A DNA stretch of 64,000 bases from a virus (IMGVR_UViG_3300019487_000028:2834-66833); one strand, 5' to 3'. Shown: positions 4,564 through 54,182, counted from the first letter of the stretch. Program-made: numbers and translations. The notes: generated from the letters alone by a model not told the origin.

Positions 4564-4663
4564 GGCGAGGCGTGGCAAGGCTTGGCGAGGCGTGGCTCGG
4601 CGTGGCAAGGCAAGGGACGTACCCTCGGGGAGTCGGCGCGAGCCGATGATAGACCGAGGGGGT
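4564..4663 (+). ncRNA. GGC-NN array 1 (10 units) plus conserved 3' stem-loop; putative guide RNA
   Basis: NN = GA GT AA TT GA GT TC GT AA AA, then GGGACGTACCCTCGGGGAGTCGGCGCGAGCCGATGATAGACCGAGGG. Confidence 0.8.
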
Positions 4664-4691
4664 TATGGATTTGAGAGAGAGAGAGTATGTG

Positions 4692-5258
4692 ATGAGTAAC
4701 GACTCCAAGAAGTACGCGGTACGGTTCGAGGGCAACAAGCCGATCCTGTTCGACCGGTACGCCGGAGACAACAAGACGAAGCTTCCGGCGCAGGACAAGT
4801 TCTACTTTGGTCCTGACGGCAAGACTCTGGTGATCCCGGCGTTCAACTTGAATTCAATGTTATCCGCAGAGAACACCAAGTCTGTATGCAAGCTCCTGAT
4901 GGGCCGGAGCGGACGACAGGTCGGTCAGGCCCTGGGGTCGAACCTGGAGATCACGCCGGCCGACATCCCGCTGCTGGGGGAGGGCGACAAGCCCCTCGTC
5001 TGGGCCGGGAAGTTCGATGGTCAGTTCGGAGTCCGGCACGACGTAGCCAGAGTAAAGAACGGAGTCCCCGTCCCCAAGGAGCGGCCGTTCGTCAGGCTTC
5101 CGTGGGCGATCGACTTCGAGATCGGCTGGACCAAGCACCCCGACGTCTCCTACGACACACTGAAGAACGTCTTCGAGCTGGCCCAGAAGATCGGCCTGGG
5201 GACGTTCCGGCCATTCTTCGGGACTTTCGTACTGGTCAAATTCAAGGAGATTTCGTAA
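4692..5258 (+). CDS. Stand-alone Cas7/RAMP-like protein (Vipr-like), putative guide-RNA-binding effector
   Basis: RAMP-like beta1 YAVRFEGNKPILF, LVIPAFNL motif and C-terminal Gly-rich loop IGLGTFRPFFGTF; flanked on both sides by GGC-NN arrays. Alternative start at 4665. Confidence 0.7.
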   Translation: MSNDSKKYAVRFEGNKPILFDRYAGDNKTKLPAQDKFYFGPDGKTLVIPAFNLNSMLSAENTKSVCKLLMGRSGRQVGQALGSNLEITPADIPLLGEGDKPLVWAGKFDGQFGVRHDVARVKNGVPVPKERPFVRLPWAIDFEIGWTKHPDVSYDTLKNVFELAQKIGLGTFRPFFGTFVLVKFKEIS

Positions 5259-5262
5259 CCGC

Positions 5263-5302
5263 GGCATTGCGCGGCTTGGCTCGGCGAGGATTGGCAAGGC
5301 AA
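5263..5302 (+). repeat. GGC-NN array 2 (8 units, two degenerate), no conserved tail
   Basis: GGC AT TGC GC GGC TT GGC TC GGC GA GGA TT GGC AA GGC AA, starting 5 nt after the RAMP stop codon. Confidence 0.7.
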
Positions 5303-6276: not shown

Positions 6277-6394
6277 GGCAGTGCACGGCGTGGCGAGGCA
6301 CGGCGCGGCGAGGCACGGCACGGCACGGCACGGCAAGGCAAGGGACGTACCCTCGGGGAGTCGGTCCGACGCGGGACTGATTATTGACCGAGGG
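6277..6394 (+). ncRNA. GGC-NN array 3 (13 units) plus variant stem-loop
   Basis: NN = AG AC GT GA AC GC GA AC AC AC AC AA AA; tail CCCTCGG...CCGAGGG. Confidence 0.8.
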
Positions 6395-6719: not shown

Positions 6720-7261
6720 GCCGGAAACGGGCCGGGATCGACCTCGACGGGGTCTGCTACGACTGGGATTCTTCCGCGAAGTTCCTGCTGTCGCACAGCT
6801 TCGGCTACTCCCTCGACGTGACCACGAGGTGGAACCACATAAAGGACTCCGTACACGCGGTCCACTGGGAGTGGCTGTGGACTGAGGGCGTGAAGCTCGG
6901 ACTCTTCCGCCACGGGAACCTCTACCGGGGGAGCATCGAGGCGCTGCGGACGCTGGACAGGAAGGGCCACAACTTGGTCATTATCACGACCAGGCCGGAC
7001 TCGGCCAGGGTCGACACCCTGGACTGGCTGTCATACCACAAGATCCCGGCGAAGGAAGTCCACGTCCTAGGCCAGGGTGCCAACAAGGCCAACGTCGAGT
7101 GCGACTGGTACGTCGACGACATGCCGAACAACGTCTCGGACATCTGCGCCGCCGGGAAGACCGCCTACCTCTTCGACCGTTCCTGGAACCGAGAATGCCG
7201 CGACGGGGTCCGGGTCGCGTCCTGGGCCGAACTCCTCTACCACCACGGGATAGTCTTCTAG
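6716..7261 (+). CDS. HAD-superfamily 5'(3')-deoxyribonucleotidase (NT5C-like)
   Basis: GIDLDGV (DxD), IITTR and YVDDMP motifs. Confidence 0.85.
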   Translation: MSRKRAGIDLDGVCYDWDSSAKFLLSHSFGYSLDVTTRWNHIKDSVHAVHWEWLWTEGVKLGLFRHGNLYRGSIEALRTLDRKGHNLVIITTRPDSARVDTLDWLSYHKIPAKEVHVLGQGANKANVECDWYVDDMPNNVSDICAAGKTAYLFDRSWNRECRDGVRVASWAELLYHHGIVF

Positions 7262-7282
7262 AGAGAAGAGTAAACTGGAGGC

Positions 7283-7456
7283 ATGGCCTCCCTCTTCGAC
7301 GAGAGAGTCATGTACCTAATGAGGGGAGACATCGCGCGGGTCGAGCTGTGCCAGAGACTCGTGACGGCGCTGGACGAGATCGAAGACTTGAAAAAGTTGA
7401 TTGACAGCATCTCTCCGGCGGTATATGATCAGCCGTCGTCGGGGGGGCTGAGGTAA
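7283..7456 (+). CDS. Small hypothetical protein
   Basis: GGAGG RBS; 57 aa; the 3' end overlaps tRNA-Trp. Confidence 0.4.
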   Translation: MASLFDERVMYLMRGDIARVELCQRLVTALDEIEDLKKLIDSISPAVYDQPSSGGLR

Positions 7457-7515
7457 CGGCAGCCGGAGGGCCTCCAAATCCCTCAGTCTGGGTTCGACCC
7501 CCAGGTCCCCCGCCA
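7442..7515 (+). tRNA. tRNA-Trp(CCA)
   Basis: Acceptor GGGGGGC/GTCCCCC; loop CTCCAAA; TTCGA T-loop; CCA end. Confidence 0.85.
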
Positions 7516-7536
7516 ACTGGAAAGACTCAATCGCGT

Positions 7537-7650
7537 AGCGAGGCAGAGCCAGGCGGGGCGGGGCGAGGCGTGGCTAGGCGAGGCATGGCCCGGCAAGGCA
7601 AGGGACGTACCTTCGGGGAGTCGGCGCGGCCGATGATAGACCGAGGGGTC
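7537..7650 (+). ncRNA. GGC-NN array 4 (13 units) plus stem-loop
   Basis: NN = GA AG CA GG GG GA GT TA GA AT CC AA AA; directly after tRNA-Trp. Confidence 0.8.
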
Positions 7651-7723
7651 GTGGCTCGGCGGTATTGAATCTGCCGAGAGCCGGCCGGAAGCTGGAGCCG
7701 GCACCAGGCGTGGCCGGGGGACA

Positions 7724-7737
7724 TCTTTGAAAACTGA
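7724..7737 (+). promoter_or_regulatory. rrn-type boxA-like antitermination element
   Basis: TCTTTGAAAACTGA, about 40 nt before the main tRNA run. Confidence 0.5.
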
Positions 7738-7778
7738 GCGAAGAAGAAAAGGCGGCGCTAGTGTGGAGCGCTGCTCAA

Positions 7779-7871
7779 GGGCGTCACGGGACAAAGGAGT
7801 CCCACCTGGCTGTAAACCAGGCGCCCCCTGATGGGGGATCACGGCAGGTTCGATCCCTGCGGCGCCCACCA
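7779..7871 (+). tRNA. tRNA-Tyr(GTA)
   Basis: CCTGG-CTGTAAA-CCAGG; long variable arm; CCA. Confidence 0.9.
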
Positions 7872-7877
7872 ACTAAT

Positions 7878-7952
7878 GCGACGCGGGCCGGGCGGTAAGG
7901 CTCCAGTCTTCCAAACTGGGAACGCGGGGTTCGACTCCCCGGCGTCGCTCCA
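7878..7952 (+). tRNA. tRNA-Gly(TCC)
   Basis: CCAGT-CTTCCAA-ACTGG; U73; CCA. Confidence 0.9.
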
Positions 7953-8047
7953 AGCAGCCCATCCAGCAGGGCTGAGAGGCGCCTGGCCCGGGCCAGGAAC
8001 CGCGCGCAGGTGCGGGCTCGTCCTAGGGCGAGTGCCGCTGGCTACTC

Positions 8048-8122
8048 GCTCTCGTAGGATCAACAGCAGACCGTCGCCTTGGTAAGGCGAAAGTCCGGGG
8101 GCAGGACCCGGTGAGAGCTCCA
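8048..8122 (+). tRNA. tRNA-Thr(GGT)
   Basis: TCGCC-TTGGTAA-GGCGA; atypical T-loop GGCAGGA; CCA. Confidence 0.85.
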
Positions 8123-8127
8123 CTAAA

Positions 8128-8203
8128 CCACCGCAGGTGCTAGCGGCAGCACGTCGCGCTCTTAACGCGAGAGGTCGGGGTTCGAGCCCCCGGCGGTGGA
8201 CCA
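8128..8203 (+). tRNA. tRNA-Lys(CTT)
   Basis: TCGCG-CTCTTAA-CGCGA; CCA. Confidence 0.9.
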
Positions 8204-8204
8204 T

Positions 8205-8281
8205 CTGCTCGTGGTGGAATGGCAGACACCCTGGTCCGAGAAGCCAGGCTAATAGGGGTTCGAGTCCCCCCGGGCAGACCA
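8205..8281 (+). tRNA. tRNA-Leu(GAG), short variable region
   Basis: CTGGT-CCGAGAA-GCCAG; Leu-type D-loop GGAATGGCAGAC. Confidence 0.85.
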
Positions 8282-8283
8282 TC

Positions 8284-8362
8284 CCCCAGGTACTCCAATC
8301 AGGCAGAGAGCGTCGGCTCAGACCCGGCGAAGGTGGGCGTTCGAGTCGCCCCCTGGGGACCA
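8284..8362 (+). tRNA. tRNA-Leu(CAG), short variable region
   Basis: GTCGG-CTCAGAC-CCGGC; CCA. Confidence 0.85.
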
Positions 8363-8378
8363 AATTCAGAAACGAGAG

Positions 8379-8639
8379 ATGAGAATGGACCCGACGAAGG
8401 ACATGGACCTCGAGAGCCTATACGACGAGTACGTGTACGAGTGTGCATACTGCTGGCTGACCAGGGACAAACACCCGGACAGGGAGTACGCGTCGTACTC
8501 CAGAGACAGGGACATCGTGTCCGCGGCCGCCAGGGAGCACCGCCGCAAGACGGGACACCCGGTCCACGTGTACCTAAAGAAGTGGTTGTACGAGGAGTCG
8601 GGCAGGTCCGACGCCAGAGAAGAGCGGGGCTGTCGCTAG
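8379..8639 (+). CDS. Hypothetical protein, possible zinc-binding
   Basis: CAYC..HRRKTGH pattern. Confidence 0.5.
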   Translation: MRMDPTKDMDLESLYDEYVYECAYCWLTRDKHPDREYASYSRDRDIVSAAAREHRRKTGHPVHVYLKKWLYEESGRSDAREERGCR

Positions 8640-8777
8640 TTAAAAGTCGAGGGCGCTGTACCGGACCCACGGCGCTACACCTTTAAACGGAAGGGCAGGA
8701 GTTAATTGAGACGAACGGCGAGCTGGCCTTCGACTTCCTGGGGCTGTTGGTCCGGCGCTCGCTGTTAACTAAGACGC

Positions 8778-8855
8778 GCGCGGGTGACGGTAACTGGCAA
8801 ACCTCACTGCCTTAGAAGCAGTGGTCTGTGGGTTCGACTCCCACTCCGCGCACCA
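8778..8855 (+). tRNA. tRNA-Leu(TAG), short variable region
   Basis: ACTGC-CTTAGAA-GCAGT; CCA. Confidence 0.9.
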
Positions 8856-8857
8856 CT

Positions 8858-8934
8858 CGCCGCCTAGCCCAGATGGCAGAGGCCCCGTCTTAAACACGGG
8901 TCAAGCGTGGGTTCGACTCCCACGGCGGCGACCA
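8858..8934 (+). tRNA. tRNA-Leu(TAA), short variable region
   Basis: CCCGT-CTTAAAC-ACGGG; CCA. Confidence 0.9.
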
Positions 8935-8936
8935 TA

Positions 8937-9012
8937 CCATCCCTGGCGCAAATGGCAGACGCGCACGGCTCAATCCCGTGAGATCAGGGTTCGAATCCCT
9001 GGGGATGGACCA
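8937..9012 (+). tRNA. tRNA-Leu(CAA), short variable region
   Basis: CACGG-CTCAATC-CCGTG; CCA. Confidence 0.9.
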
Positions 9013-9019
9013 CTCTGGA

Positions 9020-9098
9020 GGGGACGTAGATCCTGCGGGCTAGGATCACTGCGTTGTCAGCGCAGAGGGCGCGGGTTCGAGTCCCGTCGTCCCCGCCA
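9020..9098 (+). tRNA. tRNA-Asp(GTC)
   Basis: CTGCG-TTGTCAG-CGCAG; G73; CCA. Confidence 0.9.
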
Positions 9099-9117
9099 AA
9101 GTGGTACCGACTGTACT

Positions 9118-9192
9118 GGGCGGCTAGTGTTAACGAGAGCACGAGTGGTTTGCACCCACTAGGACGGAGTTTGAATCTCCGGCTGTCCACCA
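9118..9192 (+). tRNA. tRNA-Ala(TGC)
   Basis: AGTGG-TTTGCAC-CCACT; G3.U70 identity pair. Confidence 0.9.
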
Positions 9193-9416
9193 TTTCTTCA
9201 CCGCGGCCGAGCGACCTGGCCGGTGCGGCTCCAAGGCAGGTGCGCAATTCCCGCCAGGAGGCCGCCGCTCCTTTCTCCACTCCTGCGAGGTGGAGGTCGC
9301 GTTCGCAGCCGGACCCGAGACCTGGGCGGAGAGAGCTGCCGCGGGGAGTGAGAAACCCCCAACGCTTACCTGCCGCCGCCTGTCGCAACCGCCGGGTGAG
9401 GGCCCCGGCTTTCTAA

Positions 9417-9490
9417 GCCGCCGTACGCTAATGGAAGGCGACCGTCCTCTCAAGGCGGTGGTCCGAGTTCGATCCTCGGCGGCGGTACCA
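9417..9490 (+). tRNA. tRNA-Glu(CTC)
   Basis: CCGTC-CTCTCAA-GGCGG; CCA. Confidence 0.9.
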
Positions 9491-9492
9491 GA

Positions 9493-9575
9493 CGCGGACG
9501 AGTGGGCACGGACACATAAACCACGTCAGCCTCATAAGCTGAAGATACCGGGTTCGACTCCCGGGTCCGCTCCCA
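9493..9575 (+). tRNA. tRNA-Met(CAT), initiator-like unpaired C1
   Basis: TCAGC-CTCATAA-GCTGA; enlarged D-loop; lacks the GGG/CCC anticodon-stem signature of fMet. Confidence 0.75.
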
Positions 9576-9576
9576 T

Positions 9577-9654
9577 CGCAGGGAAGTTCCTTGGTAGGAA
9601 CGCAGGTCTCATAAGCCTGGCGCTAGTAGGGTTCGAATCCCACCCCTGCGACCA
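9577..9654 (+). tRNA. tRNA-Met/Ile2(CAT)
   Basis: CAGGT-CTCATAA-GCCTG; CCA. Confidence 0.85.
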
Positions 9655-9657
9655 ACG

Positions 9658-9731
9658 AGCCGGTTCGTTCAAAGGAAGGACGGCGGTCCTACAAACCGCT
9701 CATGGGGGTTCGATTCCCTCACCGGCTACCA
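9658..9731 (+). tRNA. tRNA-Val(TAC)
   Basis: GCGGT-CCTACAA-ACCGC; CCA. Confidence 0.85.
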
Positions 9732-9887
9732 CCACAACTCGGTCAGAGAGAAGCCGGCGGGCAGGCCGGAGGCGTCGCGATGCCAAGCGCGGCGTTCTGC
9801 TCGCCGGCTGCTCTGTGGCCGAGACGTCGGGGGTCGACACCCGATTAGCCACGAGGAGCCCGGAGATGGTCAAGCCTCCGGGCCGCT

Positions 9888-9961
9888 GGGTCGCGAGTGT
9901 TGAGGAAGCATGGCAGGTTGTGTCCCTGCCGGGTGGGGTTCGAGTCCCCAGCGACCCTCCA
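9888..9961 (+). tRNA. tRNA-His(GTG)
   Basis: GCAGG-TTGTGTC-CCTGC; CCA. Confidence 0.85.
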
Positions 9962-9962
9962 T

Positions 9963-10036
9963 TGGGGAGAAGTGTTACGGTAGCATCCCGGCGTCGGAAG
10001 CCGGTGGCGAGGGTCCGACTCCCTCCTCTCCAACCA
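9963..10036 (+). tRNA. tRNA-Pro(CGG)
   Basis: CCGGC-GTCGGAA-GCCGG; CCA. Confidence 0.85.
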
Positions 10037-10053
10037 AAATCTCAGTCTGCATC

Positions 10054-10127
10054 CGGGGATTGATGTAACGGAAGCATCCGGCGTTTGGAACGCCGTCGCG
10101 GGAGTTCGACTCTCCTGTCCCCGACCA
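10054..10127 (+). tRNA. tRNA-Pro(TGG)
   Basis: CGGCG-TTTGGAA-CGCCG; CCA. Confidence 0.9.
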
Positions 10128-10128
10128 T

Positions 10129-10203
10129 CGGGCCTTAGCTCAACGGCAGAGCACTCGGCTGGGGGCCGAGGAAATGCGAGTTCGAGTCTCGTGGGCCCGA
10201 CCA
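10129..10203 (+). tRNA. tRNA-Pro(GGG)
   Basis: CTCGG-CTGGGGG-CCGAG; CCA. Confidence 0.9.
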
Positions 10204-10454
10204 ATAACCAACGACGCACTGAGCGGTGGAGCCGTGGCGGGTGGCTCCAGACTGAAAGCTGCGAACACGGGGAGCGCTTTACCAGTCAAAGGGCGCGAGG
10301 ATCCGGACCGCGGCCCCGCCCTGCTTCATTCCTAGGTCAATGAAGTGAGACGACCTCGTGCGGTACGTATGGCCTGCGGGAGTGAGAATCTCCCGGAGGT
10401 GCAGGAATCATTCTCCTGAGTTCTCGGCCAGCGTGTAGAAACCGCACACCTTAC

Positions 10455-10530
10455 TGCGGTGTAGCACAACGGAAGTGCGGTCGGCTCTGAACCGACGTCA
10501 ATGGGGGTTCGACTCCCTCCGCCGCAGCCA
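10455..10530 (+). tRNA. tRNA-Gln(CTG)
   Basis: GTCGG-CTCTGAA-CCGAC; U1-A72; G73. Confidence 0.9.
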
Positions 10531-10533
10531 AAC

Positions 10534-10607
10534 TGGGGGATCATTCAATGGTAGGATGCGCCGCTGTTACCGGCGTCATGGCGGTTCGAGTCCGCCGCCC
10601 CCAGCCA
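10534..10607 (+). tRNA. tRNA-Asn(GTT)
   Basis: CGCCG-CTGTTAC-CGGCG; CCA. Confidence 0.85.
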
Positions 10608-10634
10608 ACTGCCAGAGGTTTTCAATCGTACCGT

Positions 10635-10735
10635 GGCGGGGCGGGGCGCGGCTCGGCGTAGCTCGGCAAGGCGCGGCACGGCAAGGGACGTACCTTCGGG
10701 GAGTCGGCCGCACTCCGATGATAGACCGGGGGGTC
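10635..10735 (+). ncRNA. GGC-NN array 5 (10 units) plus stem-loop
   Basis: NN = GG GG GC TC GT TC AA GC AC AA; between tRNA-Asn and tRNA-Lys. Confidence 0.8.
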
Positions 10736-10745
10736 GGAAATTCGG

Positions 10746-10821
10746 GGGACCGTAGCAAAAGATGGGTTGCGCCCGCCTTTTAAGCGGAACAACGTCGGTT
10801 CGATTCCGACCGGTCCCACCA
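10746..10821 (+). tRNA. tRNA-Lys(TTT)
   Basis: CCCGC-CTTTTAA-GCGGA; CCA. Confidence 0.9.
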
Positions 10822-10829
10822 TACGGATT

Positions 10830-10903
10830 CCACGGATCGTCCAAAGGTAGGACGCGCGGCCGATAACCGCGCAATGTGAGTTCGATTCTCGCTCCGTGGA
10901 CCA
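10830..10903 (+). tRNA. tRNA-Ile(GAT)
   Basis: CGCGG-CCGATAA-CCGCG; CCA. Confidence 0.9.
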
Positions 10904-10906
10904 ACC

Positions 10907-10979
10907 GCCGGTCAGGCCGAGGTGGCCAAACTGCCCCGTAAGCAGCAGGGCGTGGGTTCGACTCCCCGGGCCGGCTCCA
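10907..10979 (+). tRNA. tRNA-Thr(CGT)
   Basis: Loop CCCGTAA; short D-arm; U73; CCA. Confidence 0.7.
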
Positions 10980-10994
10980 CAAAATAGGAGCTAA

Positions 10995-11345
10995 GTGGCG
11001 ATCAGTATCAAAGTCTTTGGTGGCACCGCGTCTTCCGACGAGAAGTCGCTCTGCCTCTCGTGCAAGAGGGCGACGATTATCCGGGGCCAAGCTCTCGACG
11101 AAGAGATCATCGAGTGCGGCGCTCTGTCCGGCGGTGGGGACCGGCTGTCCGGCGGTGGGGACCGGATCAGGTTCAAGGTCACCAGCTGCAACGCTTACAG
11201 AGACAGCGCGCAGCCCTCCCTCCAGGACATGCAGGAGTTGGCGTGGGTCCTGAAGACCGACAACAGGACCAGGACGATCGGGTTCGTCCCGGCAAAGAAG
11301 CTGAGCTCCGCCGAGCGGTATTCCTTGACGGAATATCAGGACTGA
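10995..11345 (+). CDS. Cys-containing hypothetical protein
   Basis: AGGAG RBS; contains an in-frame 21-bp tandem duplication (LSGGGDR x2, 11124-11165). Confidence 0.6.
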   Translation: MAISIKVFGGTASSDEKSLCLSCKRATIIRGQALDEEIIECGALSGGGDRLSGGGDRIRFKVTSCNAYRDSAQPSLQDMQELAWVLKTDNRTRTIGFVPAKKLSSAERYSLTEYQD

Positions 11346-11364
11346 AACGCGAGAGGGGGGAGGA

Positions 11365-11559
11365 ATGAGTAACTGCGAGAGGGCCAACGGGGACACGAGC
11401 TTCATCGGCCGCTTTGGGGGGACGAGCTGTACCTGCCCGGTAGGCTCTCAGGCGCCGGTGTGCCAGTGGTGTGCGGAGGTCATCACCGCTCTTGACGAGA
11501 TCAGACGGCAGGCGTGGAACGAAGGCTGGGACGCGAGAAGGAGGGCCACGAAGTGGTGA
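11365..11559 (+). CDS. Small zinc-binding hypothetical protein
   Basis: GGAGG RBS; CTC..CQWC. Confidence 0.5.
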   Translation: MSNCERANGDTSFIGRFGGTSCTCPVGSQAPVCQWCAEVITALDEIRRQAWNEGWDARRRATKW

Positions 11560-11996
11560 ACGCCCAAGTGACCAAGCAGCAGCTCGACGCCTACCGGAAG
11601 ATGGACGTGTGGGCGATGCTGCTGAGTAGCAGCCCACTCATTTACTTGTGTACCCGAGCCCAGGTACTGTGGTTCGATCGCAAAATTTCGGGTGATGAGT
11701 TCAAGTACGTGCTCGGGGTCGTGGAGAAGGCCCGGCCCACCGAGGCCGAGCAACCCAGAATGGTGCGCTTCTTCACATCTCCCAGTGTGGGCGTCCCGCT
11801 CACCGCGCCGCAAACTGTGGGTCCTCGAACAGATCGCCAAGGCCGGACAGGAGGCGATCCAGAACTGAAGTCCGCAGTGCTCCTCAAGCTAACCCAGTGG
11901 AAGCGCTTCGCTGAAGACGAAGAGGGCCCGGTGCGACACCGGGGGGGGGCACCACTACGGGGGCGCAACGGTATCGACCGGGGCGCTTCGGCGTGA
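11556..11996 (+). CDS. Hypothetical protein
   Basis: GTGA overlap; the 3' end runs into the tmRNA 5' end. Confidence 0.45.
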   Translation: MNAQVTKQQLDAYRKMDVWAMLLSSSPLIYLCTRAQVLWFDRKISGDEFKYVLGVVEKARPTEAEQPRMVRFFTSPSVGVPLTAPQTVGPRTDRQGRTGGDPELKSAVLLKLTQWKRFAEDEEGPVRHRGGAPLRGRNGIDRGASA

Positions 11997-12262
11997 CGTG
12001 CAGGCGGAGGGGCTCCGAGTCTCCCTCCTAAATCTCGACCGGAAACCTCAAGCGCAGACTACGCTCTGCCGCAGGCCGCCTAGGCGGCCTCGTCGCCCAG
12101 GTTCCTCCCTCGCTAGTGCCTGGAGCGGCGTCACGACGGCGAGGACCAGTACCCCAACGCCGTGAAGGGGTGACGCTCACGGCCAACTGACGCACACAAG
12201 CCTGTGCAACTCGTCGCGTCGTTCGTGTCGGGACGCGGGTTCGACTCCCGCCGCCTCCACCA
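11959..12262 (+). ncRNA. ssrA: tmRNA (SsrA)
   Basis: 5' GGGGGCGCAACGGTATCGAC and 3' GCGGGTTCGACTCCCGCCGCCTCCACCA (G3.U pair); tag frame ...ADYALPQAA-TAG with the stop in a hairpin. Confidence 0.9.
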
Positions 12263-12282
12263 CTTCTCAAGGGGGACAAGAC

Positions 12283-12354
12283 GCCACCCGGTCACGGGAC
12301 CGGCGGAGGTTTGTATCTTCAGCCAGCGGGGTTCGACTCCCCGGGGTGGCTCCA
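12283..12354 (+). tRNA. tRNA-Thr(TGT), weak D-arm
   Basis: Acceptor GCCACCC/GGGTGGC; loop TTTGTAT; U73; CCA. Confidence 0.65.
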
Positions 12355-12359
12355 GAAAC

Positions 12360-12433
12360 GGGGTCGTATGCTAACGGTAGGCGGGCTGCCTTTCACGCAG
12401 TTGATGCGGGTTCGACTCCCGCCGACCCCACCA
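12360..12433 (+). tRNA. tRNA-Glu(TTC)
   Basis: GCTGC-CTTTCAC-GCAGT; CCA. Confidence 0.9.
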
Positions 12434-12444
12434 AACAGGAGAGC

Positions 12445-12618
12445 ATGCAGATGGCGTGGGCACACAAGAGGAAGGGAAAGAAGCGCAAGCGCGAACTCCG
12501 CATCGTCCGCGAGCTTCACCGCCGCAGCGGTCCTAAAGCGGGCCACGGGTGGGCCGCCCGCAGGGCTGCCCGAAGAGCCAACGTTTCTGCTTCGAAGCGG
12601 AAGCGCCGGAAGGTCTAG
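12445..12618 (+). CDS. Small very basic protein
   Basis: AGGAG RBS; Arg/Lys-rich. Confidence 0.45.
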   Translation: MQMAWAHKRKGKKRKRELRIVRELHRRSGPKAGHGWAARRAARRANVSASKRKRRKV

Positions 12619-12630
12619 GGACTCTCTCTG

Positions 12631-12813
12631 ATGGGGAAACACGTCACTCGGGCAGACGTTGTGCTGGACCTCTACCACAGGGGCTACTCCGTCACTGAGA
12701 TCGCGAAGGAGTTGTGCTGGAAAGGCCCCCGGTCGGAAATCAGAGCCATAATCGAAGAGTCAGGATCGGATCCGGACGATTCCCCGAGTACCGGCCAGGT
12801 CTCCGAAACCTGA
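12631..12813 (+). CDS. Small HTH-like protein
   Basis: LYHRGYSVTEIAKEL. Confidence 0.5.
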   Translation: MGKHVTRADVVLDLYHRGYSVTEIAKELCWKGPRSEIRAIIEESGSDPDDSPSTGQVSET

Positions 12814-12857
12814 CGCCGTAACTGGAGATGCGGGTTCGAGTCCCGCCTCGGGGTCCA
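12782..12857 (+). tRNA. D-armless tRNA-like RNA, anticodon CCG (Arg)
   Basis: CCCCGAG/CTCGGGG acceptor; only 7 nt before CAGGT-CTCCGAA-ACCTG; 17-nt variable region; full T-arm; CCA. Confidence 0.6.
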
Positions 12858-12860
12858 CAA

Positions 12861-12934
12861 AGCCGCGTGGTCCAACGGAAAGGCGTAGGGCTACGAACCC
12901 TGAGATGGCAGTTCGACTCTGCCCGCGGCTTCCA
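12861..12934 (+). tRNA. tRNA-Arg(ACG)
   Basis: TAGGG-CTACGAA-CCCTG; CCA. Confidence 0.9.
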
Positions 12935-12936
12935 GA

Positions 12937-13011
12937 GCTCCACATTCGCGGCGGACGCGAACCGGTTTCCTAAACCGGCAAAGCGGGGTTCGACTCCCCG
13001 GTGGGGCTCCA
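12937..13011 (+). tRNA. tRNA-Arg(CCT)
   Basis: CCGGT-TTCCTAA-ACCGG; CCA. Confidence 0.9.
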
Positions 13012-13025
13012 TCTTCATCCAACGT

Positions 13026-13136
13026 GGCCCGGCGAGGCGGGGCGCGGCGCGGCCCGGCTGGGCTAGGCGAGGCGCGGCAAGGCAAGGGACGTACCCTCGG
13101 GGAGTCGGCCGCACGCCGATGATAGACCGGGGGGTC
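13026..13136 (+). ncRNA. GGC-NN array 6 (12 units) plus stem-loop
   Basis: NN = CC GA GG GC GC CC TG TA GA GC AA AA; between two tRNA-Arg genes. Confidence 0.8.
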
Positions 13137-13144
13137 GTGACGGA

Positions 13145-13218
13145 GGCCCGCTGGTGGTGGACACCGCCGGCACTTCTAATGCCGGACCATCTCGGTTCGA
13201 CTCCGGGGCGGGCTTCCA
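13145..13218 (+). tRNA. tRNA-Arg(TCT)
   Basis: CGGCA-CTTCTAA-TGCCG; CCA. Confidence 0.85.
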
Positions 13219-13225
13219 GTTTCAT

Positions 13226-13314
13226 CCACGGTGGGAGGACGGTTCTCAGGGCGGCCTATAACCGCTCCCCCAGATCGGGGCCAGAACGGGGTTCGACTCC
13301 CCGACCGTGGTCCA
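13226..13314 (+). tRNA. tRNA with TAT anticodon (Ile) and long variable arm
   Basis: GGCGG-CCTATAA-CCGCT; variable hairpin CCCC-(CAGATC)-GGGG; U73; CCA. Confidence 0.75.
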
Positions 13315-13428
13315 TTGTTTGGGAGGGAGACAAAACGTGGTCGAGTTTGGTTCTGAAGGCTACACCGCAAGGCTGTCTGGATGGCGCTGAAGGATGGGCC
13401 TCCTGCTAGCAGCGGTGGGGAGGTCGGA

Positions 13429-13842
13429 GTGAAGGTGGCAGTAGTAGGTTCGAGGAACTTCAAGTATCTGGACCTCGTGAAGGACTACATCGACTCCCTA
13501 CCGGACAAGACGGTGGTGGTCACGGGAGGGGCTCGCGGAGTCGATGCTGCGGCCGAGGATGCAGCCAGGAAGCGGGGCCTGGAGGTGGTCGTGGTGACTC
13601 CCGACTACTCTTCGTATGGCCACATCGCCACGAAGGTCAGGAACTCGGTCATAGCCAGGATGGCCGACAAGGTGACGGCCTTCTGGGACGGGCTCTCGGG
13701 AGGTACGGCCAACACGCTAGCGTGGGCCGCAGTTTGGGGACGGCCAGTTGAGGTCTTCATGAAACGCAGATGGCGCAACACGCTCCACTCAACATGGGGA
13801 CCGACGGATGCCCGAGGAGTGGGCAGTACGAAGGGGGGTTGA
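13429..13842 (+). CDS. SLOG-family protein (YspA/DUF2493-like)
   Basis: VAVVGSR, VVTGGARGVD, RN and FWDG.SGGTANT motifs. Confidence 0.8.
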   Translation: MKVAVVGSRNFKYLDLVKDYIDSLPDKTVVVTGGARGVDAAAEDAARKRGLEVVVVTPDYSSYGHIATKVRNSVIARMADKVTAFWDGLSGGTANTLAWAAVWGRPVEVFMKRRWRNTLHSTWGPTDARGVGSTKGG

Positions 13843-13844
13843 TA

Positions 13845-14126
13845 ATGAGCAAGGCGAGACAGAAACTCGTTCGTAAAGCCCTGAGGGCAAAAGAGAGCGA
13901 GTGTCGCTCCTGGAGGTACTACGTCGTTGTCGAGGAAGGCGGGCATCCCCTCAACATGGGGATCGACGGATGCCTGTGGAGAGGAATGGGCAGTGAAGCC
14001 TGCTCAAATATGTTTTTCAGTAGCAGGCGCGCCGCCAGTTCGGCCATCACGAGGACGGTGAGGCGGGGCCTCGCCTGGACTCGGGACAACAAGCTCAGGG
14101 TCGTGGAGAAGCTGGAGCGGTTCTGA
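13845..14126 (+). CDS. Hypothetical protein
   Basis: GGGGG RBS followed by ATG. Confidence 0.5.
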   Translation: MSKARQKLVRKALRAKESECRSWRYYVVVEEGGHPLNMGIDGCLWRGMGSEACSNMFFSSRRAASSAITRTVRRGLAWTRDNKLRVVEKLERF

Positions 14127-14133
14127 CCACACT

Positions 14134-14203
14134 GGAGGGTGCGCAGTTGGACAGCGGGTCGCCTGCTAAGCGGTCTAACGGGGTTCGATTCCCCGACCCT
14201 CCG
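14134..14203 (+). tRNA. tRNA-Ser(GCT), no variable arm, CCA not encoded
   Basis: GGAGGGT/ACCCTCC; loop CTGCTAA; 4-nt variable region; G73. Confidence 0.8.
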
Positions 14204-14230
14204 AACCTGAGAAGCTGGAGACAAAAGTAC

Positions 14231-14304
14231 GGAGAGTTTGCTTTGGGACAAGGCTGGGATTCGAATCCCTGGCTAGGCCGGTTCGAATCCGGCACTCTCC
14301 GCCA
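14231..14304 (+). tRNA. tRNA-Ser(CGA), no variable arm
   Basis: GGAGAGT/ACTCTCC; loop TTCGAAT; G73; CCA. Confidence 0.75.
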
Positions 14305-14329
14305 AACTAACGAGGGAGAGAATATAGCC

Positions 14330-14929
14330 ATGACGGAAGAGACTGGGTCCGCACTTAGCTTCAACGAGTTCTCGGGCTTTGAGGAGTTCCCGAAGATCGC
14401 GAGGCTGTCGAGGGAGATCGTCGTAACCGAGAAGATCGACGGGACGAACGCCCAGGTCGCAGTAGATCATGACGGGACCGTCCGGGCCGGGAGCAGGAAC
14501 CGCTGGATCTCCCCCGAGAACGACAACTTCGGCTTCGCCCGGTGGGTCAAGGAAAACGAAGCCTTGCTGCGCGAGACCCTCGGGGTGGGACGACACTACG
14601 GGGAGTGGTTCGGGGCTGGGATCCAGAGAGGCTACGGACTCAAAGAGAAGCGCTTCGCACTATTCAACGTGAGCCGCTGGGCCGACGTCAAGCCCCCGCT
14701 CTACAGCGTGCCGATCCTCTACAGGGGTCCCTTCAGCACGGACGCGATTGACGACGAACTGGCCTGCCTGGCTGAGCTCGGGTCTGAGGCGGCATCCGGG
14801 TTCAAGCCGGCCGAGGGGGTCGTGATCTACCACGTGGCCGGGAACGTCTACTTCAAGAAGACCCTCGTCGGGGACGATTCGCCCAAGTCGGCCCCAGACA
14901 GAGTCCTCCTGGGGGTGACCAAGGCATGA
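14330..14929 (+). CDS. ATP-dependent RNA ligase (Rnl2-like nucleotidyltransferase)
   Basis: Motif I TEKIDGTNA; GEWFG; FALFN; EGVV. Confidence 0.85.
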   Translation: MTEETGSALSFNEFSGFEEFPKIARLSREIVVTEKIDGTNAQVAVDHDGTVRAGSRNRWISPENDNFGFARWVKENEALLRETLGVGRHYGEWFGAGIQRGYGLKEKRFALFNVSRWADVKPPLYSVPILYRGPFSTDAIDDELACLAELGSEAASGFKPAEGVVIYHVAGNVYFKKTLVGDDSPKSAPDRVLLGVTKA

Positions 14930-15186
14930 AGGTCCGGGTCAAGTGCTCTTGCGGCTGGTCCGGAGTCCGCAAGGACAGCCCGTCAGAGTGCTGCTGTTAC
15001 GACGAGTGGGCCGTAGTCTGCACCGGGATGAGTCCTGGCCCCGGCTGCCCGCGCCCGTGGCTGTGCGCACCGTGCCCGAAGTGCGGCCTGAAGCCTTGGC
15101 GACAGAGGACAAGAGCCGAGAAGGCGGAAGATGCCAGAGTGGACGCCTTGCTCGCCCGCGAGCTGGCCACACAAGCCGGAAACTGA
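14926..15186 (+). CDS. Cys-rich zinc-finger hypothetical protein
   Basis: CSCG..CCC..CPKCG; ATGA overlap. Confidence 0.5.
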   Translation: MKVRVKCSCGWSGVRKDSPSECCCYDEWAVVCTGMSPGPGCPRPWLCAPCPKCGLKPWRQRTRAEKAEDARVDALLARELATQAGN

Positions 15187-15235
15187 CGGACGGGACCGAG
15201 AGCCTCTGGGCAGGGTTCGATGATAGAGTGGTGAC

Positions 15236-15748
15236 ATGGCAGAACGTCGGTGGAAAACTCTGGGCGGGGAGCCGGTCCAAGACATAGCACGGTGGGTCCG
15301 CGAGGCGTCCAGCGGTGGTCAGGTGGTCCACGTGGGTACCGACTCGCTACAGACCGGACGCTGGACCCAGTTCGTGACAGTCATAGTGATACATACTCCG
15401 GGCAAGGGGGGGCGCGTTTCTTACTCCAGGGAGGCCGTCACCAGGATCGTCTCGCTCCGAGAGAGGCTGCTGAAGGAAGTCTGGCGCTCGGTCGAGATAG
15501 CGCTGACCCTGGAGGCCGGGCCGAACCCGATGTCGATCCACATCGACGCGTCTCCTGAGGAAAAGAATCTTTCAAGCAAGTACCTCCAAGAGCTTGCGGG
15601 GATGGTCATGGGCAACGGTTTCAAGGCCGTAGTGAAACCAGACGCGTGGGCGGCCAGTCACTCCGCAGACTGGGTCGTCCGACACAAGGGGAAGATTCCG
15701 CGGGACGGTCCGCAAGCCGCTTTGAAGGCGGCGATGGGGGCGCGGTGA
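15236..15748 (+). CDS. RNase H-like YkuK-family protein
   Basis: VHVGTDS, RLLKEVWRS, IHID and KPDAWAASHSAD motifs. Confidence 0.85.
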   Translation: MAERRWKTLGGEPVQDIARWVREASSGGQVVHVGTDSLQTGRWTQFVTVIVIHTPGKGGRVSYSREAVTRIVSLRERLLKEVWRSVEIALTLEAGPNPMSIHIDASPEEKNLSSKYLQELAGMVMGNGFKAVVKPDAWAASHSADWVVRHKGKIPRDGPQAALKAAMGAR

Positions 15749-15781
15749 GCGCCAGGGGTTCGACTCCTCAATCTTCCTCCA
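15690..15781 (+). tRNA. tRNA-Ser(TGA), long variable arm, overlapping the YkuK 3' end
   Basis: GGAAGAT/ATCTTCC; GCCGC-TTTGAAG-GCGGC; CCA. Confidence 0.8.
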
Positions 15782-15785
15782 CCTC

Positions 15786-15874
15786 GGAGGCGAGGCGAAC
15801 GGAAAGCAGCGGCGTTGGAAGCGCCGTGAGGCCCGAAGAGGGCCGTGCGGGTTCGAGTCCCGCCGCCTCCGCCA
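15786..15874 (+). tRNA. tRNA-Ser(GGA), long variable arm
   Basis: CGGCG-TTGGAAG-CGCCG; G73; CCA. Confidence 0.9.
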
Positions 15875-16035
15875 CTCCTACAGAGGCACTTTGTGCTGAC
15901 TGCGGAGGAGTGCCGGTCGTCCGACTGGTGACCATGTCGGCGCTCTGGAGGTCTCCGGCGAAGATTTTGCCGCTCTGCGAAGATTGTGCGTTCGGCACGG
16001 GGGAGTTGATCGTCGTCTAGGATTTCGGAAAATGT

Positions 16036-16141
16036 GGCGCGGCGCGGCGCGGCGCGGCGAGGCGCGGCATGGCCCGGCAAGGCAAGGCAAGGGACGTACC
16101 GCTCGGGGAGTCGGCGCGAGCCGATGATAGACCGAGGGGTC
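16036..16141 (+). ncRNA. GGC-NN array 7 (11 units) plus stem-loop
   Basis: NN = GC GC GC GC GA GC AT CC AA AA AA; just upstream of tRNA-Cys. Confidence 0.8.
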
Positions 16142-16158
16142 GTGGTTGACGGCAGGTG

Positions 16159-16232
16159 GAGCCGGTGGCCGAATGGCGAGGCAAGCGACTGCAAATCGCT
16201 CTATGCGGGTTCGAGTCCCGCCTGGCTCTCCA
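16159..16232 (+). tRNA. tRNA-Cys(GCA)
   Basis: AGCGA-CTGCAAA-TCGCT; U73; CCA. Confidence 0.9.
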
Positions 16233-16260
16233 CTATGCCACCATGCCCAGAGAGGTTTCG

Positions 16261-16512
16261 ATGTCTCACAGGACTGTGTCGTGGTCTGACCTGACTTCTG
16301 ATCAACGATCCCACCCAGAACGTACCAGGAGGAGGGTGCTCCGCTGCTTCTGCGGGGTGGCGACTGTTGGCCGCTGCGACCTGTGCGGGAAGCCGAGGTG
16401 CAGGATGTGCTCCAGCCGAGTCCGGGCCAGAGGGAAGCGCGGACGCGCTCACGTCAGGTGCGCCGTTCAGATAGGCGGGGTTCGGTCTCTGCACCAGATT
16501 ATCGGGGCGTAG
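16261..16512 (+). CDS. B-box-like zinc-finger hypothetical protein
   Basis: GAGG RBS; CFC..CDLC..CRMC. Confidence 0.45.
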   Translation: MSHRTVSWSDLTSDQRSHPERTRRRVLRCFCGVATVGRCDLCGKPRCRMCSSRVRARGKRGRAHVRCAVQIGGVRSLHQIIGA

Positions 16513-16578
16513 CGTAACGGCAGCGCGCGGGGCTTTGACCCCCGGCCAGTCCAGGTTCGACTCCTGGCGCCCCGGCCA
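16503..16578 (+). tRNA. tRNA-Gln(TTG)
   Basis: CGGGG-CTTTGAC-CCCCG; CCA. Confidence 0.9.
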
Positions 16579-16636
16579 ACCCTACTTCTTGGACGGACTG
16601 GACAGACGTTTCCGTCCACTCGTGTTCGGGCCGGAG

Positions 16637-54084: not shown

Positions 54085-54182
54085 TCCCAGGTCTATCATC
54101 GGCGTGCGGCCGACTCCCCTGAGGTACGTCCCTTGCCTTGCCGTGCCGTGCCTCGCCGCGCCTCGCCTCGCAGTGCCGCGCC
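54085..54182 (-). ncRNA. GGC-NN array 8 (10 units) plus stem-loop, on the minus strand
   Basis: NN = GC AC GA GA GC GA AC AC AA AA; tail GGGACGTACCTCAGGGGAGTCGGCCGCACGCCGATGATAGACCTGGG. Confidence 0.8.

What the first reader, a model, noticed from the sequence alone, without database searches (positions are those of the whole stretch)
7516..16158. Guide arrays are interleaved with tRNA genes, suggesting tRNA processing releases the guides
Seen: A4 starts about 20 nt after tRNA-Trp; A5 fills the gap between tRNA-Asn and tRNA-Lys; A6 fills the gap between tRNA-Arg(CCT) and tRNA-Arg(TCT); A7 ends 18 nt before tRNA-Cys. All are on the tRNA strand. Established: RNase P and 3' endonucleases excise tRNAs from polycistronic precursors. 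Inference: the phage matures several guides without a Cas6-like nuclease, a natural version of tRNA-gRNA multiplexing.
Basis: partly seen in the sequence, partly recalled or inferred. Interest (0 to 1): 0.75.

Follow-up and report, generated by a model that had tools for sequence, protein, structure and literature searches.

The report
VIPR guide RNAs inside a tRNA operon
Four guide-RNA genes of a phage's CRISPR-like VIPR system sit wedged between tRNA genes in one operon, so the host's tRNA-trimming enzymes probably cut them free, but five identical-type guides elsewhere in the genome manage without tRNA neighbours.

Summary
Four (GGC-NN)10-14 arrays, each followed by a conserved, covarying tail of about 50 nt, lie on the tRNA strand at the stated places. 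A5 and A6 fill tRNA-tRNA gaps of 138 and 133 nt. A4 follows tRNA-Trp. A7 precedes tRNA-Cys.

They are vrRNA genes of a VIPR system, described in 2026 preprints. The neighbouring 197-aa protein folds as a Cas7-like RAMP, and its best AlphaFold-cluster match is the reference Vipr, X1U2U4.

Co-transcription with the tRNAs is strongly implied. A near-consensus promoter sits 13 nt before tRNA-Trp. A4-A6 have no promoter of their own, no terminator follows any tail, and no ribozyme is present. RNase P and tRNA 3'-end processing must therefore sever these guides from their neighbours.

Five further guides with the same tail have no tRNA beside them and sit in mRNA leaders. tRNA processing is therefore sufficient for some guides, not the phage's general mechanism.

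Real tRNAs beside guides are rare in other VIPR loci. However, relatives in the same Vipr clade end each guide with a tRNA-like acceptor/T-arm module, which supports the idea across the clade.

There are no RNA data. This scan had already noted the VIPR system on this genome and tRNA-like tails on other DNA. I class it as a new variant of a known kind.

The parts
4665..5258 (+). vipr gene (Cas7-like RAMP effector). The true start is probably the ATG at 4692, since homologues are 180-190 aa.
   Evidence: AF2 model with pLDDT 88.5. Top PDB matches are Cmr4/Csm3. Top AFDB-cluster match is X1U2U4, E 9.5e-10, the accession named as the reported Vipr in 10.64898/2026.10.21.760802. There are 296 homologues and no Pfam family.
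4564..4662 (+). vrRNA A1 (10 GGC-NN units plus tail), directly upstream of vipr, with no tRNA neighbour.
5263..5302 (+). A2: a tail-less array of 8 units immediately after the vipr stop codon. It runs into AGGGAGG.
6277..6394 (+). vrRNA A3 (13 units plus tail with a longer, compensated inner hairpin), in the leader of ORF 6423-6719, with no tRNA neighbour.
7401..7429 (+). Sigma-70-type promoter-like site, TTGACA-17-TATGAT (11 of 12 positions), 13 nt before tRNA-Trp. Candidate promoter of the tRNA/vrRNA operon.
7442..7515 (+). tRNA-Trp (encodes CCA), the 5' neighbour of A4.
7542..7651 (+). vrRNA A4 (12 clean units, 14 with degenerate ones from 7532, plus tail).
10534..10607 (+). tRNA-Asn (encodes CCA), the 5' neighbour of A5.
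10635..10736 (+). vrRNA A5 (10 units plus tail).
10746..10821 (+). tRNA-Lys(UUU), the 3' neighbour of A5.
12937..13011 (+). tRNA-Arg(CCU) (encodes CCA), the 5' neighbour of A6.
13026..13137 (+). vrRNA A6 (12 units plus tail).
13145..13218 (+). tRNA-Arg(UCU), the 3' neighbour of A6.
16036..16142 (+). vrRNA A7 (11 units plus tail). Upstream is a small ORF, 15910-16020.
16159..16232 (+). tRNA-Cys, the 3' neighbour of A7.
54085..54182 (-). vrRNA A8 (10 units plus tail with compensatory outer-stem changes), between two minus-strand genes. A TATAAT hexamer ends 25 nt upstream. No tRNA neighbour.

Best explanation
What the arrays are. They are vrRNA (guide RNA) genes of a phage VIPR system, whose effector, Vipr, is encoded at 4665-5258. 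Four of the nine complete guides are embedded in the phage's co-directional tRNA operon.

Proposed mechanism:
1. Transcription starts at the promoter at 7401-7429 and runs through tRNAs, guides and small ORFs as long precursors. This step is inferred from sequence.
2. Host RNase P cuts at the 5' end of every tRNA. That leaves A5, A6 and A7 with 3' overhangs of 10-18 nt. Maturation of the CCA-encoding upstream tRNAs leaves A4, A5 and A6 with 5' leaders of at most 14-27 nt. It would involve an endonuclease cut in the trailer, then exonuclease trimming. This step is inferred from textbook tRNA processing.
3. The two- to three-helix tail and the Vipr filament protect the core of about 100-110 nt while the overhangs are trimmed. 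In the published SUSP1 structures the filament grows 3' to 5' from the tail. This step is inferred by analogy.
4. The ribonucleoprotein silences foreign DNA by the published one-nucleotide-skip code. The targets are unknown.

Limits of the tRNA route. tRNA processing is thus a sufficient, ready-made release route for these four guides. It is not the phage's only one. Five guides with the same tail sit in mRNA leaders between co-directional protein genes and must be released by general RNases, or, for A8 and A9, perhaps from their own -10 elements.
For: VIPR identity:
- Each array has 10-14 GGC-NN units with variable NN, and a constant GGCAA-GGCAA-GGGAC junction to the tail.
- In the tail structure, 98% of cells are paired. 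Three pairs show changes on both sides. Only 1 of 500 shuffles reaches the observed values.
- The Vipr model is Cas7-like, and its best AFDB match is X1U2U4.
- 69 of 80 IMG/VR loci with a homologue carry GGY-NN arrays.
- The architecture matches the published description: 9-16 repeats plus a structured 3' tail.

Co-transcription:
- All tRNAs and A4-A7 are on the + strand.
- A 11-of-12 promoter match ends 13 nt before tRNA-Trp.
- No sigma-70-like site lies within 150 nt upstream of A5 or A6, even with relaxed criteria, and A4 has only the tRNA-Trp promoter.
- The 14-27-nt leaders leave no room for a promoter.
- No + strand terminator-like site adjoins any guide, and terminator counts do not exceed shuffles.
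- No hammerhead or other ribozyme is present.
- All nine guides are co-oriented with both flanking genes.

The theme across the clade:
- 11 sampled VIPR loci end their guides with a tRNA top-half mimic: an acceptor-like stem of 6-7 bp, then a canonical T-arm.
- That gives 16 distinct sequences, with 91% of cells paired against 52% when shuffled.
- About 0.2 such T-arms would be expected by chance.
- Four of these loci fall in the same well-supported 31-member Vipr clade as this phage.
- In L033 the mimics alternate with four guides in tandem.
- The VIPR preprint reports hammerhead-interspersed arrays, so punctuation of guide arrays by a cleavage element has a precedent.
Against: - No RNA data exist: only two DNA runs from cave metagenomes hold this sequence.
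- Five of nine guides lack tRNA neighbours, so tRNA flanks are not required for maturation.
- A4 lacks a 3' tRNA and A7 lacks a 5' tRNA.
- Enrichment of guides in the tRNA cluster is not significant relative to the available non-coding space (P about 0.08, crude).
- Real tRNAs beside guides are rare elsewhere. Across 215 loci with 592 arrays I found two co-directional cases, L063 and L228.
- No close relative of this phage is available to test conservation. L212 and L213 are the same phage (100% identical), and L143 is 99.9% identical.
- This phage's own tail has no T-loop.
- A7 has a TAGGAT -10-like hexamer 12 nt upstream and could have its own start site.
- The promoter scan covers only sigma-70-type sites, and the host is unknown.
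Confidence: 0.66

Rival explanations
1. The neighbourhood is incidental. vrRNA genes have spread into whatever non-coding gaps the genome offers, and the tRNA cluster holds many of them. All nine guides mature by one tRNA-independent route: general endonucleases, then trimming back to the footprint protected by Vipr and the tail. tRNA cuts happen nearby but do not determine guide yield or ends, and nothing was selected for.
For: - Five of nine guides with the same tail have no tRNA neighbour and sit in mRNA leaders.
- Enrichment in the tRNA cluster is not significant.
- Short 5'-leader motifs are shared between tRNA-flanked and unflanked copies: AATCG in A1, A4 and A5, and CGTAACCG in A2, A3 and A10.
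- tRNA adjacency is rare in other VIPR loci.
Against: - In A5 and A6 the guide plus short spacers fills the whole tRNA-tRNA gap, so RNase P and tRNA 3' processing unavoidably create the precursor ends.
- tRNA-like punctuation recurs in the same Vipr clade.
- The four tRNA-embedded copies share a 3' GUCG extension, which forms an extra GAC/GUC helix. Of the five other copies, only A10 has the GUC.
Confidence: 0.24
2. Each guide is an independent transcription unit with its own, possibly non-sigma-70 or phage-specific, promoter. The tail acts as a terminator or stabiliser, and the tRNAs are merely adjacent.
For: - -10-like hexamers lie close upstream of A7 (TAGGAT), A8 (TATAAT) and A9 (TAGTTT).
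- A T-rich motif lies 8-20 nt upstream of most arrays.
- The published SUSP1 vrRNAs appear as discrete transcripts of about 100 nt.
Against: - No promoter-like site was found for A1, A3, A5, A6 or A10, even with relaxed criteria.
- Only 14-27 nt separate the upstream tRNA from A4-A6.
- No U-tract follows any tail.
- A1's tail ends 2 nt before the ATG at 4665, the first in-frame start of the vipr ORF, which argues against termination there.
Confidence: 0.07
3. The tRNA-embedded copies are not working guides. They could be decoys, relics or DNA-level repeats.
For: - No targets were found by exact gapped search for A4, A5 or A6.
- A2 shows that degenerate, tail-less copies exist.
Against: - A4-A7 keep perfect GGC register, with different NN sets in each copy.
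- Their tails are intact, with pairing kept through G-U and compensatory changes.
- Unit numbers (10-14) lie within the published range of 9-16.
- The exact-match search was insensitive. The published criterion is at least 80% NN match.
Confidence: 0.03

Closest known systems
VIPR systems (Vipr plus vrRNA), type II of Escherichia phage SUSP1 and the Pseudomonas fulva prophage (bioRxiv 10.64898/2026.04.26.720920, 10.64898/2026.04.26.720927, 10.64898/2026.10.15.759431)
   Same: - A small Cas7-like RAMP protein.
- Guides of 9-16 GGY-NN repeats capped by a conserved structured 3' tail.
- One guide directly upstream of vipr.
- Encoded by a phage.
- No self-targets under the one-nucleotide-skip rule.
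   Different: - Guides are dispersed over more than 68 kb instead of clustered beside vipr.
- Four lie inside a tRNA operon.
- The tail is a nested pair of helices with a GNRA-type loop, not the SUSP1 pseudoknot sequence.
- No vap gene was identified.
- Protein identity to X1U2U4 is only 22%.
- The preprints' main texts hold no occurrence of 'tRNA'.
Hammerhead-ribozyme-interspersed vrRNA arrays (VIPR types I and V, fig. S19 of 10.64898/2026.04.26.720920)
   Same: Guides are transcribed in a polycistron and separated by a structured RNA element that specifies a cut, without a Cas6-like protein.
   Different: The element here is a real tRNA cut by host enzymes, not a self-cleaving ribozyme. No ribozyme was found by Rfam. 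Only four of nine guides are punctuated in this way.
vrRNAs with tRNA-like (acceptor/T-arm) tails in related VIPR loci
   Same: They fall in the same Vipr clade. A tRNA-shaped element sits directly 3' of the guide and 4-9 nt before the next guide.
   Different: There the tRNA mimic is a top half of about 45 nt and is part of every guide unit. Here the tail has no T-loop, and full decoding tRNAs, with anticodons and encoded CCA, take the flanking positions.
Engineered polycistronic tRNA-gRNA (PTG) arrays for CRISPR multiplexing (Xie et al. 2015, from my own knowledge; an example of use is PMC6297969)
   Same: The order tRNA-guide-tRNA on one transcript, with release expected from RNase P and tRNA 3' processing.
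   Different: This case is natural, bacterial or phage, and serves a Cas7-like filament rather than Cas9. The tRNAs are functional-looking genes rather than spacers. Cleavage has not been shown.
Natural tRNA-linked small RNAs and tRNA punctuation: MHV68 tRNA-miRNA (TMER) genes cut by tRNase Z (PMC4838037), plant mitochondrial t-elements (PMC1920247), and phage T4 stable RNAs C and D within its tRNA cluster (from my own knowledge)
   Same: A non-tRNA functional RNA, or an mRNA end, is generated because a neighbouring tRNA or tRNA-like fold recruits RNase P or RNase Z.
   Different: None of these RNAs is a guide for an RNA-guided DNA-binding effector.

Membership tests
VIPR system | A Vipr protein: a small single-RRM RAMP (Cas7-like) with a G-loop and thumb | tested here: met
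   AF2 model with pLDDT 88.5. PDB matches are Cmr4/Csm3 at E 1e-6 to 1e-4. The top AFDB-cluster hit is X1U2U4, TM 0.68/0.75, the accession named as the reported Vipr. G-loop and thumb residues were not inspected individually.
VIPR system | vrRNA made of 9-16 tandem GGY-NN units, with conserved GGY and hypervariable NN | tested here: met
   Nine copies with 10-14 units. GGC is nearly invariant and the NN sets differ between copies.
VIPR system | A conserved structured 3' tail capping the repeat tract | tested here: met
   98% of cells are paired, and three pairs show changes on both sides. MFE folds recover the structure in A4, A6 and A7. A pseudoknot, as in SUSP1, was not assessed.
VIPR system | vrRNAs are expressed and bound by Vipr | not testable with these tools
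   No RNA run is listed for this sequence.
VIPR system | Guides match foreign DNA by the one-nucleotide-skip rule and do not target their own genome | tested here: inconclusive
   No self-match above permuted-guide controls. Exact gapped searches of IMG/VR gave 0, 0 and 1 hit, and the single hit is judged to be chance. A mismatch-tolerant search was not possible.
VIPR system | An accessory vap gene next to vipr | tested here: inconclusive
   Neighbouring ORFs give no telling Pfam hits. A GNAT fragment and NT5C lie further downstream.
tRNA-guide polycistron (PTG-like release) | The guide is flanked on the same strand by tRNAs, with only short spacers | tested here: met
   A5 and A6 on both sides, A4 on the 5' side only, A7 on the 3' side only. 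Spacers are 10-27 nt.
tRNA-guide polycistron (PTG-like release) | One upstream promoter, with no promoter or terminator private to each guide | tested here: met
   A promoter at 7401-7429. None within 150 nt of A5 or A6. No adjacent terminators. These are consensus scans only, and A7 has a -10-like hexamer.
tRNA-guide polycistron (PTG-like release) | Mature guide ends coincide with RNase P and tRNA 3'-processing cuts and depend on them | not testable with these tools
   Needs end-mapped small-RNA sequencing and RNase depletion.
tRNA-guide polycistron (PTG-like release) | All guides of the system are released in this way | tested here: not met
   A1, A3, A8, A9 and A10 have no tRNA neighbour.
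vrRNAs with tRNA-like tails | The tail holds a canonical T-arm stacked on an acceptor-like stem | tested here: not met
   The window's tails have a GNRA-type or variable loop and a 7-nt 3' linker (UGAUAGA), with no T-loop. The feature is present in relatives.
Ribozyme-interspersed vrRNA arrays | A hammerhead or other self-cleaving ribozyme between guides | tested here: not met
   No ribozyme family at E of 1 or below in 4000-18000. None at gathering score in the whole window plus the A9 and A10 loci.

The most novel reading that the evidence does not exclude
Guide biogenesis in this branch of VIPR systems depends on the host's tRNA-maturation machinery. Relatives build a tRNA top-half mimic into every guide. 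This phage has gone one step further and parks guides between real tRNA genes of a strongly transcribed operon. RNase P and tRNA 3'-end enzymes would thus take the place that Cas6 holds in CRISPR, making this a natural, selected counterpart of engineered tRNA-gRNA arrays.
Probability: 0.3. Interest if true: 0.75.

Novelty: new variant of a known kind. Interest (0 to 1): 0.55.

Why it matters
VIPR was described only in 2026, and none of the preprints I could read discuss tRNAs or RNases in how its guide RNAs are cut out of their transcripts. The only processing device they report is hammerhead ribozymes in some types. If tRNA processing releases guides here, and tRNA-like tails do the same in relatives, host tRNA enzymes would be a second, protein-free answer to the Cas6 problem. 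It would also explain how a one-protein system can multiplex many guides. It would give a natural template for compact multiplexed VIPR tools. Finally, it would tie guide expression to the phage's early tRNA operon.

Tried and rejected
- Rfam. No family matches the arrays or tails, and no ribozyme is present. The tRNA-like tails of relatives are not scored as tRNA.
- My first idea was a binding site for a TRAP-like ring protein, or a promoter element. I dropped it once the VIPR literature and the Vipr fold fitted.
- Megablast of 5000-17000 against GenBank phages gave no match.
- Tail-motif scans. The 18 IMG/VR hits are all chance, with no arrays. Of 22 metagenome hits, only L143 is real, and it is 99.9% identical to this phage.
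- The closest Vipr homologues (P0003, P0005, P0006) had no DNA available. L212 and L213 proved to be the same phage. Conservation of the tRNA-guide arrangement in close relatives therefore could not be tested.
- Whole-record scans of 10 large VIPR-bearing viral records: six have arrays, four of them only near vipr. G006 also has one about 9 kb away, and G003's three lie 10-11 kb from vipr. tRNAs were checked only in the held loci, and none adjoined an array.
- Targets. There are no self-targets. Exact gapped searches for A6 and A4 gave 0 hits. A5 gave 1 hit, in a jumbo-phage contig of 39% G+C, with the next unit mismatched, so I judge it to be chance.
- Sequencing runs. No RNA holder is listed, only two DNA runs from cave metagenomes, which may be the source of this sequence.
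- No supplementary files of the VIPR preprint are held.

Full report
**Observation.** ARAGORN finds 33 tRNA genes and a tmRNA, all on the + strand, between 7442 and 16578. A pattern of six GGC-NN units matches 50 times in the window, against 0 in 100 shuffles. The matches fall in eight places: 4564, 5273, 6277, 7542, 10635, 13026 and 16036 on the + strand, and 54182 on the - strand. Two more lie outside the window in the same 76.3-kb virus record, at G000 70307 and 75742.

Nine copies have 10-14 units. Each ends in GGCAA-GGCAA-GGGAC followed by a shared tail of about 50 nt. The copy at 5263 has eight units and no tail.

- A4 begins 26 nt after tRNA-Trp, or 16 nt if two degenerate units are counted.
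- A5 fills the 138-nt gap between tRNA-Asn and tRNA-Lys(UUU).
- A6 fills the 133-nt gap between tRNA-Arg(CCU) and tRNA-Arg(UCU).
- A7's tail ends 16-18 nt before tRNA-Cys.
- A4 has no tRNA on its 3' side; a 129-nt hairpin-rich spacer follows it.
- A7 has no tRNA on its 5' side; a small ORF ends 16 nt upstream.

**What the elements are.** Rfam has no family for them. A note from this scan on the same genome (e1-5345035) pointed me to the VIPR preprints, which I read and then tested against the sequence.

The preprint 10.64898/2026.04.26.720920 defines vrRNAs as 9-16 GGY-NN repeats followed by an invariable structured 3' tail. They are bound by Vipr, a small ancestral RAMP, and read DNA with a one-nucleotide skip.

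The window meets these criteria.
- The arrays fit the repeat definition.
- The tail forms an outer 7-bp helix (CCYUCGG/CCGRGGG) enclosing a 5-bp hairpin. 98% of cells are paired, three pairs show changes on both sides, and only 1 of 500 shuffles reaches the observed values.
- MFE folds recover this structure in A4, A6 and A7, with an extra GAC/GUC helix.
- The ORF at 4665-5258 lies between A1 and A2 and has no Pfam or PDB sequence match.
- It has 296 homologues of about 185 aa.
- Its AF2 model (pLDDT 88.5) matches Cas7-type Cmr4/Csm3 subunits.
- Its best match among 2.3 million AlphaFold clusters is X1U2U4 (E 9.5e-10), the accession that 10.64898/2026.10.21.760802 names as the reported Vipr.
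- 69 of 80 IMG/VR loci that encode a homologue carry GGY-NN arrays within 10 kb.

I therefore file the locus as a VIPR system. The 'guide' part of the finding is sound.

**Are the four guides transcribed with the tRNAs?**
- Everything from 1 to about 16600 is on the + strand.
- The best sigma-70-like site in 3000-17500 is TTGACA-17-TATGAT at 7401-7429, which ends 13 nt before tRNA-Trp.
- My own relaxed scan finds no -35/-10 pair within 150 nt upstream of A5 or A6. For A4 it finds only the tRNA-Trp promoter.
- The spacers between the upstream tRNA and the array are 14-27 nt, too short for a promoter.
- No + strand terminator-like site adjoins a guide, no tail is followed by a U-tract, and terminator counts do not exceed shuffles.
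- No hammerhead or other ribozyme is present.

The sequence thus points to long precursors in which A4-A6, at least, are joined to tRNAs. RNase P cleavage at each tRNA 5' end is universal, so it would leave A5, A6 and A7 with 3' overhangs of 10-18 nt. Maturation of the upstream tRNAs would leave leaders of 14-27 nt.

All three upstream tRNAs encode CCA. RNase Z is therefore an unlikely cutter. An RNase E/J-type cut followed by exonuclease trimming is the textbook route. The host is unknown.

Final ends would be set by trimming back to the tail and the Vipr filament. In the SUSP1 structures the tail caps the 3' end and protomers add in the 3'-to-5' direction. These steps are inferences. Only DNA runs from cave metagenomes hold this sequence.

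**Limits of the interpretation.** Five complete guides (A1, A3, A8, A9, A10) carry the same tail but have no tRNA beside them. Each lies between two co-directional protein genes, 20-60 nt upstream of the next start codon. Most have no promoter-like site. A8 and A9 have -10-like hexamers only.

The phage must therefore be able to mature guides out of mRNAs without tRNAs, so tRNA flanks cannot be the general mechanism.

With a crude gene call, the tRNA cluster holds about a fifth of the usable non-coding space. Four of nine guides there gives P of about 0.08. That is compatible with guides simply occupying the available gaps.

The lack of a Cas6-like nuclease is a property of VIPR as published, not of this phage.

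**Comparative evidence.** No close relative is available.
- L212 and L213 are 100% identical to this genome.
- L143 is 99.9% identical. One of its three differences lies in an NN dinucleotide of guide A10.

Across 215 more distant loci with 592 arrays, real co-directional tRNAs next to an array are rare.
- In L063, tRNA-Gly lies 12 nt after a tail-less array.
- In L228, tRNA-Ile lies 58 nt before an array.
- In ten large viral records searched whole, six have arrays and four of those hold them only near vipr. G006 also has one about 9 kb away, and G003's three lie 10-11 kb from it. tRNAs were checked only in the held loci, and none adjoined an array.

However, 11 loci end their guides with a tRNA top-half mimic. 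This consists of a 7-nt strand, a linker of about 10 nt, a 5-bp stem with a canonical GTTCGAYYC-type T-loop, and a complementary 7-nt strand.
- There are 16 distinct sequences, with 91% of cells paired against 52% when shuffled.
- 13 of the 16 have at least 6 of 7 acceptor pairs.
- By my estimate, about 0.2 such T-arms would be expected by chance.
- MFE folds give the stacked helices in 4 of 4 cases tested.
- In L033 four such units stand in tandem, with only 9 nt between a mimic and the next array.

In a maximum-likelihood tree of 83 Vipr proteins, the window groups with L215 and L214 (support 99/96). This group sits inside a supported 31-member clade (98/86) that also holds the mimic-bearing loci L031, L033, L035 and L039.

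'tRNA' does not occur in the main texts of the three VIPR preprints, and no supplements are held. Earlier notes of this scan report the same kind of tail in other genomes.

This makes use of tRNA-processing enzymes for guide release a plausible theme of the clade. This phage's own tail has no T-loop.

**Function of the guides.** Under the one-nucleotide-skip rule, none of the nine guides matches its own genome better than permuted controls do. This agrees with the preprint's report of no self-targeting.

Exact gapped searches for A4, A5 and A6 in IMG/VR found nothing credible. The published criterion tolerates 20% mismatches, which I could not reproduce at database scale.

| Claim | My confidence |
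|---|---|
| The arrays are VIPR guide genes | about 0.93 |
| A4-A6, and probably A7, are delimited by tRNA-processing cuts (the core of my best explanation) | about 0.66 |
| The arrangement is a selected maturation strategy rather than a by-product of where non-coding room exists | about 0.3 |

It is a new variant of a known kind: tRNA-interspersed vrRNA genes, alongside the published clustered, staggered, single and hammerhead-interspersed layouts.

Noticed in passing
L031:6874-6935, L033:10574-11215, L034:8347-8590, L039:10586-10720, L314:1400-1815, L325:4680-4990(-), L233, L244, L249, L309: In these VIPR loci the vrRNA 3' tail is a tRNA top-half mimic: an acceptor-like stem plus a canonical T-arm, covarying between loci. 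In L033 four guide-plus-mimic units stand in tandem, 9 nt apart. This is not mentioned in the VIPR preprints I could read. The scan has noted it before in other genomes.
   Followed up: yes
window 5263-5302: A tail-less array of eight units starts 5 nt after the vipr stop and runs into AGGGAGG. Similar tail-less terminal arrays followed by a ribosome-binding site and a gene occur in L033 (11216-11260), L040 and L043. They may be relics, or leaders through which Vipr controls the downstream gene.
   Followed up: partly
L143:3635-3674 versus G000 75742-75794: A metagenome contig 99.93% identical over 4.2 kb differs at three positions. One of them lies in an NN dinucleotide of guide A10 (AA to AT), a possible guide variant between strains.
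   Followed up: partly
L063:10585-10740; L228:6127-6330: These are the only other co-directional real tRNAs beside VIPR arrays in 215 loci. tRNA-Gly lies 12 nt after a tail-less array of 14 units, and tRNA-Ile(UAU) lies 58 nt before an array.
   Followed up: partly
window 9510-9576, 10910-10980, 12290-12354, 12781-12857: T-arm-like sequences ending in CCA were not called by ARAGORN. Rfam gives tRNA 26 bits at 9510-9569 and tRNA-Sec 25 bits at 12781-12854. They are probably further atypical tRNA or tRNA-like genes in the cluster.
   Followed up: no
window 7650-7778: A 129-nt spacer between A4 and tRNA-Tyr folds into four hairpins (MFE -53 kcal/mol, z -1.7). It has no Rfam match and no ORF.
   Followed up: partly
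window 14330-14929 and 13381-13842: An RNA ligase (PF09414) and a SLOG/YAcAr-family protein are encoded inside the tRNA cluster. The ligase suggests tRNA repair.
   Followed up: partly
L033:5728-5794(-) and 495-560(-): Two twister-P1-like ribozyme matches (58 and 51 bits, below the gathering score of 67) lie on the strand opposite the VIPR array of that viral contig.
   Followed up: no
L040-L051 (for example L043:4483-4560): In several related loci an array runs directly into an ORF beginning MGFVYII, a start that resembles GIY-YIG nucleases. This may be an accessory (vap) gene fused to the guide's end.
   Followed up: no
window 12987-13027 versus 13194-13234: The 3' ends and trailers of tRNA-Arg(CCU) and tRNA-Arg(UCU) are 78% identical. 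A6 looks as if it was inserted between two paralogous tRNA-Arg units.
   Followed up: no
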